A stretch of 5,030 nucleotides of DNA, from IMG/VR virus record IMGVR_UViG_3300022758_000366; one strand, 5' to 3'. Both the position numbers and the translations under genes were made by a program. The notes under the pieces were generated by a model. The model ran no database searches. It saw nothing but the letters and a program-made list of their open reading frames with translations, and was not told the origin of the DNA. Positions 1 to 5,030 of this stretch are shown here, piece by piece; the first letter of the stretch is position 1; each line of letters opens with the position of its first letter. The stretch is from a virus. Its lineage: Duplodnaviria > Heunggongvirae > Uroviricota > Caudoviricetes.

Positions 1-1848
1 CACATGCCGGGACCATTACCGTCTATGAAGGTTCCAGACCAGGTACGCTGAATGATTTTCTCGGTGCCATGACGGAGGATGAGCCCGTCCGGAGGCACTG
101 CGCCGTTTTGAGCTGATGGTGAATGAAGTGGCACGTCATGCCGGAGCGTCATCACAGAGCGCAGCGGCGGCAAAGAAATCCGAAACTGCAGCGGCATCAT
201 CGAAGAACGCGGCGAAAACCTCAGAAACGAATGCAGCTAATAGTGCACAGGCGGCAGCGACCTCACAGACTGCATCAGAAAACTCCGCGACAGCAGCCAA
301 AAATCAGAAACCAACGCGAAAAATAGCGAGACAGCCGCAAAGACGAGCGAAACCAACGCAAAGTCCAGCCAGACGGCAGCGAAAACCAGCGAAACGAATG
401 CCAAAGACAGTGAAGCCACGCAAAAGGTGAGCGAAACAGCGGCTGCGAACTCAGCGAAAGCATCGGCAGCAAGCCAGACGGCAGCTAAAGCAAGCGAAGA
501 TGCAGCCAGAGAGTACGCAAGCCAGGCTGCGGAGCCGTATAAATATGTCTTACAGCCGCTGCCTGATGTGTGGATACCATTTAACGATTCGCTGGATATG
601 ATTACGGGCTTTTCGCCGTCATATAAAAAGATTGTTATTGGTGATGATGAAATAACGATGCCTGGCGACAAGGTTGTTAAGTTTAAACGCGCATCGAAAG
701 CAACCTATATTAATAAATCTGGTGTGCTGACAGTGGCTGCCATTGACGAGCCACGGTTTGAACGTGATGGCCTGCTTATTGAGGGGCAAAGAACGAACTA
801 CATGCTCAATTCGGAAAGCCCTGCCAGTTGGGGGCGATCGTCAAATATGGATGTTCCCGAAACCGGGACGGATAGTTTTGGTTTTACCTATGGAAAGTTT
901 GTCTGTAACGATTCTCTGATTGGGCAAACCTCAGCCATTAATATGGCATCAATTGCTGCAACAAAGTCAGTTGATGTCTCAGGCGATAATAAATACGTGA
1001 CAACCTCATGTCGTTTTAAAACAGAACTGCAGGTAAGGTTGCGTATCCGATTTGATAAATATGACGGTAGCGCAACAACTTTTCTTGGTGATGTGTATAT
1101 TGATACACAAACGCTTGAAATTAATATGACAGGCGGCGCTGCCTCAAGGATTACAGCGAGAGTCAGAAAGGACGAAGTTATCGGATGGATTTTTGCAGAG
1201 GCAACAATTCAGGCAATTGATGGGGAGTTAAAAATAGGTTCTCAGATACAGTATTCTCCTAAGCAGGGCGGGGCAACCGTATCTGGTGACTATATTTATC
1301 TGGCCACCCCACAAGTAGAAAATGGGCCTTGTGTATCATCTTTTATTATATCAGGAACGACGGCGGCGACCCGCGCAAGCGATATAGTCACAGTTCCCAT
1401 TAAGAATAATCTTTATAATCTTCCTTTTACGGTTCTTTGTGAGGTACATAAGAACTGGTATAAAACGCCAATGCAGCACCGCGTGTTTTTGATACCGGCG
1501 GTCATCAAACCGGAGCGGCTATTATTCTTGGCTTCGGTTCTTCAGCAGATTACGACGGATTTCCTTATTGCGATATTGGTGGGTCTAACAGACGGATAAA
1601 CGAAAATGCATCACTTGAAAAAAATGGTTATGGGGATGCGTGTAAAGTCTGATCAGTCTACATGCGCAGTAAGTAACGGGCGTATATCCAGCGAAACAAA
1701 AACCACATGGTCCTGTATTCAGAACACCGCAATTATCCGTATTGGAGGCCAGACTACAGCCGGGTTACGTCATTTATTTGGTCATGTAAGGAATTTCAGA
1801 ATATGGCACAAGGCATTGACTGATGCTCAGGTGGGGGAGTCAATCTAA
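1..1848 (+). CDS. stf: Side tail fibre protein (lambda Stf-like N-proximal part, Ala/Ser/Thr repeat, LamG-like distal domain); 5' end outside window; reading frame broken as sequenced
   Basis: Frame 3 at 3..113 gives HAGTITVYEGSRPGTLNDFLGAMTEDEP. Frame 2 from 83 gives ARPEALRRFELMVNEVARHAGASSQSAAAAKKSETAAASSKNAAKTSETNAA. Both peptides match my recollection of lambda Stf (HAGTITVYEDSQPGTLNDFLCAMTEDDARPEVLRRLELMVEEVAR). Frame 1 from 299 continues KSETNAKNSETAAKTSETNAK to the stop at 1597-1599. A frame-3 stretch 1482..1649 (DTGGHQTGAAIILGFGSSADYDGFPYCDIGG) and frame 1 at 1651..1848 (ending GLRHLFGHVRNFRIWHKALTDAQVGESI) look like one concanavalin/LamG-type domain. The listed ORFs 116..430, 427..1599 and 1606..1848 are pieces of this one gene; the 'M' at 427 is an internal GTG. 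Confidence 0.85.
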
Positions 1849-2156
1849 TGAAAGATTTAACACTCAAATTTCCCGACAGGGCCGACTTTTCGGCCTTTAT
1901 GGAGAGCATTGGCTATTATGATGACGAGTTGATGCAGGATGATATTCTTATTGACGTGATAGGTAACGTGTACAAAGAAACCGGAGAACTGACTGAAGAT
2001 GGCGAACCGGTATGTGTTAAGGAAGACGGATATTTTGTAAACGTGCGCATCATTATGATGCAAAAAAATCGTCAATATTCGATAAATACGCGGTTGTTGT
2101 TGAGCATCAACTTCGTGGCTGGATGTGAGGGAGACAAATGGCTACATCGACAGTAA
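1848..2156 (+). CDS. Hypothetical small acidic protein (102 aa) in the tail-fibre operon
   Basis: The ATG at 1848 overlaps the stf stop as TAATG (translational coupling). The ORF is rich in Asp/Glu and sits between two fibre genes. Its 3' end overlaps the next ORF by 19 nt in another frame. No family recognised. Confidence 0.45.
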   Translation: MKDLTLKFPDRADFSAFMESIGYYDDELMQDDILIDVIGNVYKETGELTEDGEPVCVKEDGYFVNVRIIMMQKNRQYSINTRLLLSINFVAGCEGDKWLHRQ

Positions 2157-2842
2157 TTCCAGGAGATATCACCACGCTAAAGGGAGATGTCAGTAAAACT
2201 AAGGAAGAGATTTCCTCAATTAACGGAAAAGTATCAACGCTTCAGACTGATATGACCAGTGCAAAGCAGGATATCAGCACCAGATACACAAAAACTGAAG
2301 TTGATAATAAGCTGAAAAACAAAGTGGAAGTGAACGATCTGGAAAGTGGTCGTTATGGCGGAGATTTTTATCCACTGACAGGTCGTGAAGCGTTTTATTT
2401 ATGGAATTTGGCCACGACTACAGCGGCGGCAAACCTTTATCTTAATCCTGACCCCGCAATTTCGTCTGTACTGCGGTCAACATCATCTATCCGCTATAAA
2501 CATTCAGTAGAGACAATAGATTCAGAGCACGCCGATCTCATTTTCAGGATGCGCCCTGTGTGGTACAGGTCGCAATGCGAAAATGACAGGCGTGACTGGG
2601 GATTCTATGGATTGATTGCCGAGGAAGTTGGAGAAATTGCCCCTCAGTTTGTTCACTGGCGACCAGCCAACGAAGATGATGCACCGGAAACCATTTCCAG
2701 CAATGGCCTTGTTGCCGAAGGTGTAATGTACGAACGTCTGGTTGTTCCACTGATTCACCATATCCAGAAACTGACTGAAAGAGTTGATGAACTTGAGTCA
2801 GAGTTAAAGTTGTTATCCGTTTCCCGAAGCGATATCGGATAA
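2138..2842 (+). CDS. Tail fibre/spike-type protein with C-terminal intramolecular chaperone auto-processing (peptidase S74-like) domain
   Basis: GAGGGAG lies about 5 nt upstream of the ATG at 2138, and a frame-2 stop sits at 2126-2128 just before it. The N-terminal half is heptad-like (DITTLKGDVSKTKEEISSINGKVSTLQTD). The C-terminal region SSIRYKHSVETIDSEHADLIFRMRPVWYRS...WGFYGLIAEEVGEIAPQFV...GVMYERLVVPLIHHIQKLTERVDELESELKLL follows the consensus of the endosialidase/T5 LtfA chaperone domain (S-x-x-R-x-K ... GxIAQEV..P ... Y..LvPLl..iqeL...LE). Confidence 0.8.
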   Translation: MATSTVIPGDITTLKGDVSKTKEEISSINGKVSTLQTDMTSAKQDISTRYTKTEVDNKLKNKVEVNDLESGRYGGDFYPLTGREAFYLWNLATTTAAANLYLNPDPAISSVLRSTSSIRYKHSVETIDSEHADLIFRMRPVWYRSQCENDRRDWGFYGLIAEEVGEIAPQFVHWRPANEDDAPETISSNGLVAEGVMYERLVVPLIHHIQKLTERVDELESELKLLSVSRSDIG

Positions 2843-2852
2843 AGGAGGAGTA

Positions 2853-3140
2853 ATGGATATAACACCTTTTCTTCATGCGCTTTGTGCTGTGGCTGCGCAG
2901 GTACTGATTGGCCTTTTTACCGGAAACTGGGCTTACGGTGCGATAGCCGGTTGTACGTTCTTCATTGCGCGTGAACACACCCAGGCAGAATATCGCTGGA
3001 TTGAAATGTTTGGGCATGGCAAGAGGATTAACATGCCGTGGTGGGGCGGTTTTGATCCGCGCGTGTGGGATGTGGCAAGCCTGATGGATTTTGCTGTGCC
3101 GGTGGTGGCGTGTCTGCTGATCTGGATGTTGATCCGTTAA
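2853..3140 (+). CDS. Small integral membrane protein (95 aa, about three hydrophobic helices); moron-position gene, possible superinfection-exclusion or lysogenic-conversion function
   Basis: A strong Shine-Dalgarno AGGAGGAG at 2843-2850 precedes the ATG at 2853. Hydrophobic segments are FLHALCAVAAQVLIGLF, WAYGAIAGCTFFIA and VASLMDFAVPVVACLLIWMLI. It lies between the tail-fibre genes and the att site and is followed by a hairpin. No lipobox. Confidence 0.6.
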   Translation: MDITPFLHALCAVAAQVLIGLFTGNWAYGAIAGCTFFIAREHTQAEYRWIEMFGHGKRINMPWWGGFDPRVWDVASLMDFAVPVVACLLIWMLIR

Positions 3141-3191: not shown

Positions 3192-3485
3192 GGTTAACTT
3201 TCGATAGTGCGAGTATTGAATGATTTCCAGCCGTTACCGATTTTATATAACTGCAGTGGAATTATTCAACACACAGGCAAAACGGAATAAGCTGAGAAAA
3301 AAAGCGTGCTTACCCAATCTGGGGTAAATCACGTCTGAATGACACCTGAAAACAGGTGGTGGCCTCAAGAAGGCTTGGAATATTCTTCTTTAATGTTATG
3401 TAATTTATTGATTTTTCGTGTACGATTTTAAGACATTTATTCCAAGAAAAGTTTTTAACTCTTTGATTTTTCGACTCTGTATCAT

Positions 3486-3547
3486 CGGTCTCGAAAACCG
3501 GAGTGGGGGCAACTCCACCGGGGGTTCAAATCCCCCTCTCTCCGCCA
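3486..3547 (+). other. 3' portion of a tRNA-Ser(CGA) gene (anticodon stem-loop to CCA); not a complete tRNA; att core
   Basis: CGGT-CTCGAAA-ACCGG gives an anticodon loop with anticodon CGA. A long class-II variable arm AGTGGGGGCAACTCCAC follows, then T arm GGGGG-TTCAAAT-CCCCC, acceptor 3' strand TCTCTCC, discriminator G and CCA. Nearly identical to my recollection of E. coli serU from the anticodon stem onward. The upstream sequence TTTTTCGACTCTGTATCAT cannot form the acceptor 5' strand or D arm. Confidence 0.8.
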
Positions 3548-3592: not shown

Positions 3593-3628
3593 CTTGGAAT
3601 TACTTGGAATATTTTCTTGGAATATTTT
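3593..3628 (+). repeat. Three tandem direct repeats CTTGGAAT(T/A)TT(TT): putative integrase arm-type binding sites (P' arm)
   Basis: Units at 3593-3602, 3603-3615 and 3616-3628. The same 11-mer recurs at 3374-3384 and inverted at 3435-3446. The repeats overlap the last codons and stop of the int fragment. Confidence 0.55.
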
Positions 3629-3945
3629 CAGGTAACGGGACATCAAGTGTTGGTGAAACTTTAACCTTCCTGTCATAGATTAGCACTTGCCCTTCGGTTT
3701 TGTGACCAGAGAAAAGTTGCTTATCCCGGCTGCTTCCTTCATAGTCTGAAATTCCTTTCGCCTTCAGATCATGAAAGGTGAAGTCGGTTAAAATACCTGA
3801 AATTTTTCCAGCACGATTTCTTGCTTCTACCCACATTTCGTTAAAGCCTTTGTACATATATCGGTTGCCGTATTGATTGCTGATCACATAGGCAGATTTT
3901 GGTAACTGTTTTGCTTTTCGATCGCTGCCTGTAATCGTGGACTCC
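3600..3945 (-). pseudogene. int: Tyrosine integrase (lambda Int family), C-terminal fragment only; N-terminal and core-binding domains absent
   Basis: The C-terminal ~100 residues of the 3600..4199 ORF (AYVISNQYGNRYMYKGFNEMWVEARNRAGKISGILTDFTFHDLKAKGISDYEGSSRDKQLFSGHKTEGQVLIYDRK) align by eye with the lambda Int C-terminus (TFHELRSLSARLYEKQISDKFAQHLLGHKSDTMASQYRDDR), including the His, the GHK His and the Tyr nucleophile. The Arg of H-x-L-R is Lys here. Nothing upstream resembles the first catalytic Arg/Lys region. The 3' end abuts the att site. The boundary at ~3945 is approximate. Confidence 0.7.
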
Positions 3946-4407
3946 ATGCTTTTATCTGTATCTTTATCTGTCGTGACTCGTCGTGACATGTGCGTGACAT
4001 TTCGTGACGCGCCGTGACAATCGCCATTTTGTTCCCGCTTTCTTTCCCTCTCTCGCTGCGCCCTCTTGCGCTCTGCAGGAGATTTTGCGGTTTGCGAAAT
4101 ATTGCCGTTGTCCTCTTTAAGCACCTGGCGTTTTTCCCATCCAGTGATTAAATCACCATCAAGTACCCGCCCCTGCATCGTCTGCAAAATTTGAATCAAT
4201 TACCTCTTCTGTCACGTCGAGCGCACTTGCCAAATCTTCTGTCGTGACATCAATGTGACCTCGCGTGACATTTCGTGACGCGCTCACCAGGAGGTGGATA
4301 TACACTGCCATCACTGTTGCAATTGGCTGCCCTGACACCCTGGCAATTGTTCGCCACTTAGGGTCATTTGGCATGTCATGCCATAATCTGAGCCAGGCGT
4401 TAGCCAT
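3946..4407 (-). CDS. Putative phage replication initiator (YdaU/DUF1376-like N-terminus, from memory), frameshifted and continuous with the int fragment
   Basis: ATG at 4407 with SD GAGGTGAG. The N-terminus MANAWLRLWHDMPNDPKWRTIARVSGQPIATVMAVYIHLL resembles the W..Y....DPK N-terminal motif I recall for DUF1376/YdaU-like initiators. A frame change lies near 4160-4200, after which the sequence continues as QGRVLDGDLITGWEKRQ...ERKRAQRERERK. Iteron-like repeats are embedded in the coding sequence. Sits immediately downstream of a YdaT-like gene, as in the Rac ydaS-ydaT-ydaU-ydaV module. The 3' boundary is approximate. Confidence 0.45.
3972..4279. repeat. Iteron-like CGTGAC direct repeats with ~10-11 bp phasing (putative replication origin inside the initiator gene)
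   Basis: CGTGAC starts at 3972, 3982, 3993, 4003 and 4013, then at 4243, 4254 (TGTGAC), 4264 and 4274, with an inverted GTCACG at 4211-4216. An identical 21-mer GCGTGACATTTCGTGACGCGC occurs at 3992-4012 and 4263-4283. An AT-rich block with TATCTG repeats lies at 3948-3970. Confidence 0.55.
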
Positions 4408-4479
4408 ACTCACCTCTTCTGATACCGAATCTTTTTTACTCACGAGTTGCCGGAAGCGATTCGATATGGCTATTATCAC

Positions 4480-4904
4480 TCAATGCACTGCCACAGCATT
4501 TCCTGCCGGGCCACCACGGTTCATCTGATTGAAACCGGCGATTGCCACTGCGACAAAATCATCGGCGTCTCTCACCAGTCGCTCCCGCGTCTCCACCAGC
4601 TCCCGAAATAAGCTGAACTGTGGCTACGCATTCTGGCCACCAGCAAAGGTGGCATTGCCTTTTCGATCGCTGGTACAACGCCTGAATTTTTTCAACTGCA
4701 TCAGGGGTGTCTTTCTCTACCCAGCGGAAAATTTTCTGGGTATTGCGAGCCAGGGCTTCCGGATGGCTGTCGTCGTACAGTTCAGGAAACGTCATACCCA
4801 ACTCAAAATAAGCCTGGGTTATTCCAGCTGCCGGAACTTTTTTCGCCATCAGGACGCGCCCAGGCATTCATCGCCATGCGGATGTGTTCATGCTTGATTT
4901 TCAT
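4480..4904 (-). CDS. YdaT-like protein (Rac prophage ydaT family, assignment from memory), interrupted by two frame changes as sequenced
   Basis: ATG at 4904-4902 is preceded by AAGGGGGG. The frame gives MKIKHEHIRMAMNAWARPDGEK, then after the T6 run at 4838-4843 a second frame gives VPAAGITQAYFELGMTFPELYDDSHPEALARNTQKIFRWVEKDTPDAVEKIQALYQRS, and a third frame (ELVETRERLVRDADDFVAVAIAGFNQMNRGGPAGNAVAVH) ends at the stop 4480-4482 just before the next gene's RBS. Removing two single-base insertions gives 141 codons, which matches my recollection that YdaT is 140 aa. Confidence 0.45.
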
Positions 4905-5030
4905 GAATCCCCCCTTGGTTAGAAGGCGGATTATGATCAGAACCGGGAATGACAACCGTCGGTATGTGTAACTCATATTTGAGCGCCCCCGGCAGTGACT
5001 GCCTGAATTAGCAACGCCCATTTCCACGGC

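What the first reader, a model, noticed from the sequence alone, without database searches (positions are those of the whole stretch)
3948..4284. Phased CGTGAC iteron array inside the initiator gene, with an exact 21-bp duplicate
Nine direct CGTGAC copies fall in two clusters at one-helical-turn spacing (10-11 bp), with one inverted copy and an adjacent AT-rich TATCTG-repeat block. They are embedded in the coding sequence of the putative initiator, as with lambda ori inside gene O. The two clusters share an identical 21-mer 271 bp apart, a potential substrate for deletion or duplication. The repeats also impose a repeated SRNVT peptide on the protein.
Basis: seen in the sequence. Interest (0 to 1): 0.65.

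Follow-up and report, generated by a model that had tools for sequence, protein, structure and literature searches.

The report
Relic phage replication origin inside initiator gene
The phased CGTGAC repeats are real and are very probably the initiator-binding sites of a phage replication origin lying inside the initiator's own gene, a layout conserved in dozens of prophages; here the gene is cut in half, so it is a dead relic.

Summary
There are 8 exact CGTGAC copies plus 1 TGTGAC variant, in two arrays spaced 10-11 bp, one inverted copy, an adjacent AT-rich TATCTG block and an exact 21-mer duplicate.

The repeats lie in the first 456 nt of a 1071-nt 'phage replisome organizer' gene. That gene is intact and 99% identical in other E. 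coli prophages and in isolated phages such as Tritos and Evi.

Comparative evidence supports the origin reading:
- In 51 of 62 homologous loci from diverse bacteria, the same two gene positions carry 10-11-bp-phased repeats. Flanking control segments never do.
- The repeat word differs by lineage (GTCACG, GTAACG, CGAACGC, GGAACGC, TGCAACGC, GTGACGC) and changes in both arrays together.
- Within the GTCACG group, codons inside the repeats are almost frozen (0.22 vs 1.42 bits, p=4e-7).
- The second array is always followed by the AT-richest stretch of the gene.

The logic matches lambda ori in gene O and SPP1 oriL in gene 38, in a distantly related winged-helix initiator. No replication or binding was tested.

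Half the AT-rich tract and the C-terminal domain are gone. The 271-bp spacing and the frameshift come from a homopolymer indel.

The parts
3951..4407 (-). The 5' 456 nt (codons 1 to about 152) of a 1071-nt phage 'replisome organizer' or initiator gene. It is truncated at its 3' side and carries one extra T at 4190, which breaks the frame.
   Evidence: 99.4% identity to the intact genes of E. coli prophages and phages from window 3951 onward. PHROG 3729 'replication initiation protein', E=4e-255 for the intact homologue. Indel list.
4243..4279 (-). Iteron array A. Four copies of GTCAC(G) in gene orientation, seen as CGTGAC at 4243, 4264, 4274 and TGTGAC at 4254. Spacing 11, 10, 10. This is gene nt 129-165, codons 43-55.
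   Evidence: Positions are conserved in 26 GTCAC-type homologues. The codons are nearly invariant. The array maps to the end of helix 3 and a low-confidence loop of the winged-helix domain.
4211..4216 (+). Single inverted copy of the repeat, GTCACG on the + strand. It covers codons 64-66 (D-V-T), in the turn of the helix-turn-helix.
   Evidence: Codon 65 is GTG in 20 of 20 homologues that have Val there.
3972..4018 (-). Iteron array B. Five copies of GTCACG, seen as CGTGAC at 3972, 3982, 3993, 4003, 4013. Spacing 10, 11, 10, 10. This is gene nt 389-435, codons 130-145, in the disordered linker.
   Evidence: Copy number is 3-5 in homologues, and up to 6 in another repeat class.
3951..3971 (-). 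Remaining 21 nt of the purine-rich, AT-rich tract (gene sense ACAGATAAAGATACAGATAAA) that follows array B. It is the presumed DNA-unwinding element. About half of it is lost at the truncation.
   Evidence: In 7 of 7 homologues tested, the AT-richest 30-nt window of the whole gene starts right after the last array-B repeat. GAT AAA GAT codons are fixed in 17-19 of 19 homologues.
3992..4012 (.). Copy 1 of the exact 21-mer GCGTGACATTTCGTGACGCGC. It spans two adjacent iterons plus their spacer.
   Evidence: Read directly from the sequence; families D1 and D2.
4263..4283 (.). Copy 2 of the exact 21-mer.
   Evidence: Read directly from the sequence.
3951..3959 (.). Rearrangement joint. The 9-bp microhomology TTTATCTGT is shared by the initiator gene's AT-rich tract and the integrase gene.
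   Evidence: Alignments of the window to the intact initiator gene and to intact integrase genes.
3600..3950 (-). The 3' fragment (about 115 codons) of a tyrosine integrase gene, fused to the truncated initiator gene. It is context, not part of the origin.
   Evidence: Weak Pfam Phage_integrase hit.
3486..3547 (+). The 3' 62 nt of a tRNA-Ser gene (serU-type). It is the attachment-site copy between the tail-fibre prophage on the left and the remnant on the right. It is context, not part of the origin.
   Evidence: The window aligns to tRNA-Ser plus the adjacent integrase in E. coli H1827/12. ARAGORN finds no complete tRNA.

Best explanation
The two phased GTCACG arrays and the AT-rich GATAAA tract after the second array are most likely the replication origin of a lambdoid-type prophage. 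The origin lies inside the gene for its own initiator.

Proposed mechanism (inferred):
1. The initiator's N-terminal winged-helix domain binds the 10-11-bp-spaced repeats, so the protomers sit on one face of the DNA.
2. This builds a nucleoprotein complex on arrays A and B, which lie 260 bp apart.
3. The complex opens the adjoining AT-rich tract.
4. The C-terminal domain then brings in the helicase-loading machinery.

What is shown: the repeats are conserved at DNA level, positionally fixed, lineage-specific, and coupled to an AT-rich tract.

What is inferred from lambda O/ori and SPP1 G38P/oriL: binding, unwinding and helicase recruitment.

In this window the element is a relic. An illegitimate recombination at a 9-bp microhomology joined codon ~152 of the initiator gene to the 3' end of an integrase gene next to a tRNA-Ser att site. 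That removed the C-terminal domain and half of the AT-rich tract. The locus therefore cannot replicate on its own. At most it could bind, and be fired by or titrate, a matching initiator supplied by another phage.
For: 1. The repeats are non-random and helically phased.

2. The host gene is a replication initiator. PHROG 3729 'replication initiation protein' scores E=4e-255. Its C-terminal part matches PHROG 1701 'DnaD-like helicase loader' at E=2e-62. The gene sits after cro/ydaT in the early-right operon. In relatives it is followed by a DnaC-like loader or a DnaB helicase. The identical module occurs in isolated, viable phages.

3. The same hexamer is read in all three reading frames.

4. 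In 23 GTCACG-type homologues with mean amino-acid identity 74%, codon entropy is 0.22 bit inside the repeats and 1.42 bit outside (Mann-Whitney p=4e-7). The inverted copy and the GAT AAA GAT codons are also fixed.

5. 51 of 62 homologous loci have at least 5 phased copies of one pentamer in the first 620 nt of the gene. None of 59 upstream and none of 59 downstream control segments do.

6. Six repeat classes exist. Both arrays always use the same class, and the classes largely follow protein similarity.

7. The AT-richest 30 nt of the gene directly follows array B in 7 of 7 homologues, including phages of GC-rich hosts.

8. Array copy number varies by whole repeats, and the encoded loop or linker changes length with it. 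Lambda and Stx phages differ in the same way, with 4 and 6 iterons (PMC7466680).

10. The truncation and joint are documented.
Against: - No experiment shows binding, unwinding or initiation for this family, and I found no paper on it.
- The iterons are short direct repeats with a 6-7-bp core, not the 19-bp dyads of lambda.
- The Pfam match to the replisome-organizer family is below threshold (15.7 bits against 23.3).
- Eleven of 62 homologues lack clear repeats at one or both sites, so the protein can exist without them.
- No helicase-loader gene follows the E. coli version; a DUF977 gene does.
- Array A lies inside a folded domain, which is unusual for known intragenic origins.
Confidence: 0.8

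Rival explanations
1. The repeats are initiator-binding sites, but their main role is regulatory rather than origin firing. Bound initiator would block transcription through its own gene (autoregulation), or the two arrays would pair and limit initiation. The true unwinding site would lie elsewhere.
For: There are two separated arrays. Array A sits far from the AT-rich tract, 260 bp away. Only array B is directly coupled to it. The sites lie in the transcribed region of the early operon.
Against: The invariable coupling of array B to the AT-richest tract of the gene is the classic iteron-plus-unwinding-element origin signature (PMC5737612, PMC7466680). No other repeat cluster appears in the 8 kb around the gene. 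This rival does not exclude an origin role; array A could be regulatory while array B is the origin core.
Confidence: 0.1
2. The DNA repeats are a by-product of selection on a repeated peptide (SRNVT and similar) that the protein needs.
For: The peptide A-S-R-N-V-T occurs twice. The T and R-G residues of the loop are conserved even in distant homologues.
Against: - The hexamer is read in three frames.
- Synonymous positions are frozen only inside the repeats.
- The peptide changes whenever the DNA word changes, in both arrays at once.
- Some homologues keep the domain but have no repeat-encoded loop motif (L036, L038, L048).
- Array A encodes a low-confidence loop and array B a disordered linker.
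Confidence: 0.03
3. The repeats are the cis site of some other DNA transaction, such as a packaging, partition or recombination site, or the binding site of a neighbouring regulator such as YdaT or a cII-like protein.
For: Phased short direct repeats are also typical of centromere-like and some pac sites. The AT-rich tract is a hotspot of module exchange and of the deletion seen here.
Against: The repeats travel with the N-terminal domain of the initiator across hosts, while the neighbouring genes differ. The E. coli locus has Cro, YdaT and DUF977. The Aeromonas locus has XRE, a cII-like protein and a DnaC-like loader. The Ralstonia locus has hypothetical proteins and DnaB. Repeat class largely follows the similarity of that domain.
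Confidence: 0.05

Closest known systems
Bacteriophage lambda ori-lambda inside gene O, and the lambdoid and Stx-phage variants
   Same: The origin lies within the initiator's coding sequence and consists of an iteron array followed by an AT-rich tract. The iterons encode a flexible part of the protein. Iteron number varies between relatives and changes protein length (4 iterons in lambda against 6 in Stx phages, 13 extra residues; PMC7466680). The N-terminal part is origin-specific and the C-terminal part is exchangeable. The genomic position after cro/cII-like genes is the same.
   Different: No sequence relation to O; the intact protein has no Pfam hit at all. The iterons are 10-11-bp direct repeats with a 6-bp core, not 19-bp dyads about 20 bp apart. 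There are two arrays 260 bp apart, one of them inside the folded DNA-binding domain. The E. coli version has no P-type loader gene downstream.
Bacillus phage SPP1 replisome organizer G38P with oriL embedded in gene 38, and related origins in replisome-organizer genes of Gram-positive phages (Pfam Phage_rep_org_N)
   Same: The initiator is called a 'replisome organizer'. The origin, made of repeated boxes plus an adjacent AT-rich unwinding element, is embedded in the initiator gene (PMC5737612). The N-terminal domain gives a full-length but weak match to Phage_rep_org_N and has a DnaD-NTD-like winged-helix fold.
   Different: The Pfam score is below the gathering threshold (15.7 against 23.3 bits). 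The hosts are Proteobacteria and other Gram-negative lineages. The repeat words differ. The two arrays both lie within one gene, whereas SPP1 has oriL and a distant oriR. The C-terminal domain resembles DnaT or DnaD-like loaders.
Iteron-type plasmid origins (Rep winged-helix initiators such as pPS10, R6K and RK2)

Membership tests
Lambda-type origin (O protein / ori-lambda) | Initiator homologous to lambda O (Pfam Phage_rep_O) | tested here: not met
   The intact 356-aa homologue gives no Pfam family at E<=0.01. The N-terminal 155 aa give only weak Phage_rep_org_N and HTH_Crp_2 hits.
Lambda-type origin (O protein / ori-lambda) | Origin located inside the initiator gene, with an iteron array directly followed by an AT-rich tract | tested here: met
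   The arrays lie at gene nt 129-165 and 389-435. The AT-richest window of the gene follows array B in 7 of 7 homologues.
Lambda-type origin (O protein / ori-lambda) | Iterons are ~19-bp inverted-repeat sequences bound by O dimers | tested here: not met
   The units are 10-11 bp direct repeats with the core GTCACG and no internal dyad.
Lambda-type origin (O protein / ori-lambda) | Initiator-dependent replication from the cloned region | not testable with these tools
   Needs a plasmid replication assay.
Phage replisome organizer (SPP1 G38P type, Pfam PF09681 Phage_rep_org_N) | N-terminal domain matches PF09681 above the gathering score | tested here: not met
   E=0.015, 15.7 bits against a cutoff of 23.3, though the match covers residues 5-123 against profile positions 1-119 of 121. 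This is consistent with a distant relative only. NCBI nevertheless names the protein 'phage replisome organizer'.
Phage replisome organizer (SPP1 G38P type, Pfam PF09681 Phage_rep_org_N) | Winged-helix (DnaD-NTD-like) N-terminal DNA-binding fold | tested here: inconclusive
Phage replisome organizer (SPP1 G38P type, Pfam PF09681 Phage_rep_org_N) | Origin (repeated boxes plus unwinding element) embedded in the organizer gene | tested here: met
   compared with the description of oriL in PMC5737612.
Phage replisome organizer (SPP1 G38P type, Pfam PF09681 Phage_rep_org_N) | Specific binding of the organizer to the repeats, and recruitment of loader and helicase | not testable with these tools
   Needs EMSA or footprinting and reconstitution.
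Functional (live) origin in this window | Intact cognate initiator gene in cis and a complete unwinding element | tested here: not met
   The gene is truncated at codon ~152. Only 21 nt of the AT tract remain. The sequence is fused to an integrase fragment.

The most novel reading that the evidence does not exclude
Array A may encode the specificity-determining loop of the winged-helix domain, and array B a second copy of the same peptide in the linker. Any change of the iteron word would then automatically rewrite the peptide that reads it. Site and reader would co-evolve because they are the same piece of DNA.

This would explain how six iteron classes arose on an otherwise similar domain. 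The residues that differ between the GTCAC, GTAAC and CGAAC classes are concentrated in the iteron-encoded loop. The predicted recognition helix and wing (AMQGRVLDG) stay almost the same.
Probability: 0.08. Interest if true: 0.85.

Novelty: new member of a known kind. Interest (0 to 1): 0.42.

Why it matters
This assigns a probable origin of replication to a widespread but experimentally uncharacterised prophage initiator family. NCBI's name for it, 'phage replisome organizer', covers thousands of E. coli and Shigella entries (one 90%-identity cluster alone has 5,786 member sequences), and the family also occurs in Pseudomonas, Aeromonas, Bordetella, Ralstonia and Burkholderia phages.

The family offers a natural series of six iteron classes on one protein fold. 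That makes it a convenient system for asking how initiator-origin specificity changes.

The AT-rich tract after the origin is also the boundary where different C-terminal modules are swapped, and where the deletion in this window occurred.

For the window itself the practical message is modest. It holds an orphan, truncated origin in a decaying prophage junction. It is not an active replicon.

Tried and rejected
- Rac YdaU and Qin ydfX as the same gene: rejected. YdaU is a DUF1376 protein, and K-12 Qin has no such gene.
- Literature searches for this family's origin or a GTCACG iteron found nothing relevant.
- The viral-contig scan returned only identical E. coli copies and added no diversity.
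- GC skew over this mosaic 1.6-kb stretch is uninformative.
- Promoter and terminator scans were at chance level.
- A DnaA-box-like TATCCAC just upstream of array A is not conserved in homologues: codons 36-38 vary.
- A profile search of PDB sequences found no solved relative.
- A search for class-specific residues in the recognition helix found no clear determinant outside the iteron-encoded loop.
No complete E. coli genome holds the junction. The Shigella flexneri homologue L010 is intact beyond 3951. The source and frequency of the fusion therefore remain unknown.
- Rfam gave only weak sub-threshold hits on the tRNA fragment.

Full report
**1. What is in the window**

The window is a prophage junction of E. 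coli/Shigella type.
- Positions 1-3140 (+) hold tail-fibre genes that are 95% identical to E. coli prophages.
- Positions 3486-3547 hold the last 62 nt of a tRNA-Ser gene. ARAGORN finds no complete tRNA. The segment aligns to tRNA-Ser plus its neighbouring integrase in E. coli H1827/12.
- Positions 3600-3950 (-) hold the 3' third of that tyrosine integrase gene.
- From 3951 to the end, the sequence is 99.4% identical to the early-right region of Rac/Qin-like lambdoid prophages and of isolated phages (Tritos, Evi, vB_EcoS-640R1). The genes there are Cro/DicC-like, YdaT-like and 'phage replisome organizer'.

The organizer gene is 1071 nt (356 aa) when intact (L001 3386-4456). The window keeps only its first 456 nt (4407 down to 3951, minus strand).

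**2. The observation**

CGTGAC occurs 11 times in the window against 1.9 expected (0 of 200 shuffles).
- Eight direct copies lie at 3972, 3982, 3993, 4003, 4013 and at 4243, 4264, 4274.
- A ninth copy is the variant TGTGAC at 4254.
- One inverted copy lies at 4211.
- Spacings are 10-11 bp.

The 21-mer GCGTGACATTTCGTGACGCGC is present at 3992-4012 and 4263-4283. The TTTATCTGT repeat block lies at 3951-3971.

In gene orientation the word is GTCACG. It sits at nt 129, 139, 149 (GTCACA), 160 (array A) and at 389, 399, 409, 420, 430 (array B). Array B is followed by GATAAAGATACAGATAAAGATACAGATCAAGAAGATCAAAAC.

**3. DNA feature or peptide feature?**

The hexamer is read in all three frames.

Homologues in Aeromonas phage pAEv1818 and Pseudomonas phage phi1 share about 70% amino-acid identity over the N-terminal 138 residues. 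They have GTCAC at exactly the same gene positions. In a codon alignment, third positions are free almost everywhere except inside the repeats.

I then took 23 GTCACG-type homologues from Gamma- and Betaproteobacteria, with mean identity 74%. Codon entropy at conserved residues is 0.22 bit inside the repeats and 1.42 bit outside (Mann-Whitney p=4e-7).
- V47, T48, G50, H51, V54 and T55 each use one single codon in every homologue that has that residue (22-23 of 23 sequences).
- The inverted copy is fixed: V65 is GTG in 20 of 20.
- The GAT AAA GAT codons after array B are fixed in 17-19 of 19.

**4. A family-wide architecture**

Among 62 homologous loci, 51 have at least 5 copies of one pentamer spaced 10-11 bp in the first 620 nt of the gene. 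None of 59 upstream and none of 59 downstream control segments of the same loci do; their maximum is 3.

The copies fall in two arrays at conserved places, nt ~130-190 and ~340-500.

The word differs by lineage:

| Repeat word | Where found |
|---|---|
| GTCACG | 26 loci |
| CGAACGC | 13 loci |
| GTAACG | 5 loci |
| GTGACGC | 4 loci |
| TGCAACGC | 4 loci (Ralstonia, Cupriavidus, Burkholderia) |
| GGAACGC | 2 loci (Novosphingobium) |

Both arrays of a gene always use the same word, and the classes largely follow protein similarity.

Array B is followed by a purine-rich AT tract (CAGATAAAGATAAAGA, CAGATACAGATACAGA, CAGAGAAGA). In 7 of 7 genes checked, including phages of GC-rich hosts, the AT-richest 30-nt window of the entire gene (67-83% AT) begins right after the last array-B repeat.

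Copy number varies by whole repeats. Array B has 3 copies in Aeromonas, 4 in Pseudomonas and 5 in E. coli. Array A has 6 copies in E. albertii and in some E. coli variants. Pseudomonas L066 has 9 + 6 copies. The encoded loop or linker lengthens accordingly.

A few members lack the repeats while keeping the domain (L036, L038, L048, Microcystis phage). The repeat-encoded peptide is therefore not needed by the fold.

**5. The protein**

- PHROG 3729 'replication initiation protein' matches at E=4e-255. The C-terminal part matches 'DnaD-like helicase loader' (PHROG 1701, E=2e-62).
- Relatives with a different N-terminal part but a similar C-terminal part carry the Pfam family PF17948, and NCBI names them 'DnaT-like ssDNA-binding domain-containing protein'.
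- The last 24 residues weakly match the DnaT C-terminus.
- The AF2 model has a folded N-domain. Residues 11-40 and 61-80 score pLDDT 80-89, with a dip to 57 over residues 41-50. A basic helix spans 110-126. A disordered linker spans 127-244 (pLDDT below 50). A folded C-domain spans 245-330.
- Pfam Phage_rep_org_N matches the whole N-domain but below threshold.
- No relative has been solved.

Array A (codons 43-55) encodes the end of helix 3 and the low-confidence loop before the helix-turn-helix. Array B (codons 130-145) encodes the start of the disordered linker.

**6. Mechanism**

Shown: there is a conserved, helically phased, lineage-specific repeat system inside the initiator gene, and it is coupled to an AT-rich tract.

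Inferred by analogy with lambda O/ori (PMC7466680) and SPP1 G38P/oriL (PMC5737612):
1. The winged-helix domain binds the repeats on one face of the helix.
2. It forms a higher-order complex, possibly bridging arrays A and B.
3. The complex melts the GATAAA tract.
4. The C-terminal domain recruits the helicase-loading system. That is a phage DnaC-like or DnaB protein in some relatives, and presumably host factors in the E. coli version, where a DUF977 gene follows.

Array A might instead, or in addition, serve autoregulation.

**7. State of this copy**

Initiator homology ends at 3951, and integrase homology runs up to about 3959-3965. The two share TTTATCTGT, so the joint is an illegitimate recombination inside the AT-rich tract.

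The C-terminal 204 codons and about half of the AT tract are missing. The locus cannot act as an autonomous replicon.

The orientation (integrase and initiator on the same strand) does not fit a simple internal deletion of one lambda-like prophage. A more complex rearrangement occurred.

All six differences between window 3951-5029 and the intact homologue are single-base homopolymer-length changes, with no substitutions. The apparent frameshifts are therefore likely sequencing errors. These include the one at 4190, which splits the gene and makes the 21-mer distance 271 rather than 270.

**8. Comparison and novelty**

The logic is that of lambda ori-in-O and SPP1 oriL-in-gene-38. Membership in the O family fails: there is no homology and no dyad iterons. 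Membership in the Pfam replisome-organizer family is only sub-threshold.

I found no description of this family's origin in the searchable literature, which is open access only.

I rate it a new member of a known kind. It is of moderate interest as a comparative system (six iteron classes, two arrays, one inside the DNA-binding domain). It is of low interest as a feature of this particular window, where it is a truncated relic.

Noticed in passing
window 3374-3381, 3439-3446 (-), 3593-3600, 3603-3610, 3616-3623: Five copies of CTTGGAAT flank the tRNA-Ser attachment core, against 0.21 expected by chance. They are probably arm-type binding sites of the integrase on both sides of the att core.
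   Followed up: partly
window 4190, 4432, 4606, 4675, 4838, 4986: Every difference from the 99%-identical intact prophage (L001) is a 1-nt change in a homopolymer run; there are no substitutions. This pattern suggests sequencing error. It would explain the apparent frameshifts in the initiator, ydaT-like and cro-like genes, and probably those in the tail-fibre genes.
   Followed up: partly
window 3600-4407 (-): If the extra T at 4190 is removed, initiator codons 1-152, 12 out-of-frame integrase codons and the last 105 codons of the integrase form one open reading frame. This depends on a further 1-nt homopolymer deletion near 3914. Whether a winged-helix/integrase-C-terminus fusion protein is really encoded cannot be decided from this sequence.
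   Followed up: partly
window 3486-3547 with 1-3140 and 3600-3950: The tRNA-Ser 3' half sits between a tail-fibre prophage end on the left and an integrase remnant on the right. This suggests two elements in tandem at the serU site. The integrase and the initiator fragment lie on the same strand, which a simple deletion within one lambda-like prophage would not give.
   Followed up: partly
proteins P0001, P0045, P0052, P0090: E. coli prophages join the same N-terminal origin module (aa 1 to about 155) to at least four unrelated C-terminal domains. The switch point is right after the DKDTD/AT-rich tract, which is the same tract where the deletion in this window occurred.
   Followed up: partly
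L049 and L059 (Serratia, Pantoea), gene nt 326-370: These homologues keep the N-terminal domain but lack array A. They carry ACTACG/CTACGTAG repeats instead and continue into a different C-terminal sequence (YVYFV...GISSNPWAR).
   Followed up: no
L066 and L068 (Pseudomonas), gene nt 146-239 and 448-509: The arrays are strongly expanded, with 8-9 copies of GTGAC(G) in array A and 6 in array B, and a correspondingly long inserted loop in the N-terminal domain.
   Followed up: no
N-terminal domain alignment of all classes: Residues that distinguish the GTCAC, GTAAC and CGAAC iteron classes lie mostly in the loop encoded by array A itself. The predicted recognition helix and wing are nearly unchanged. 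How binding specificity changes between these classes is unexplained.
   Followed up: partly
window 116-1848: The side-tail-fibre gene is split into three ORFs (116-430, 427-1599, 1606-1848). Its N-terminal region is Ala/Ser/Thr/Lys-rich and repetitive. The splits are probably more homopolymer errors or decay.
   Followed up: no
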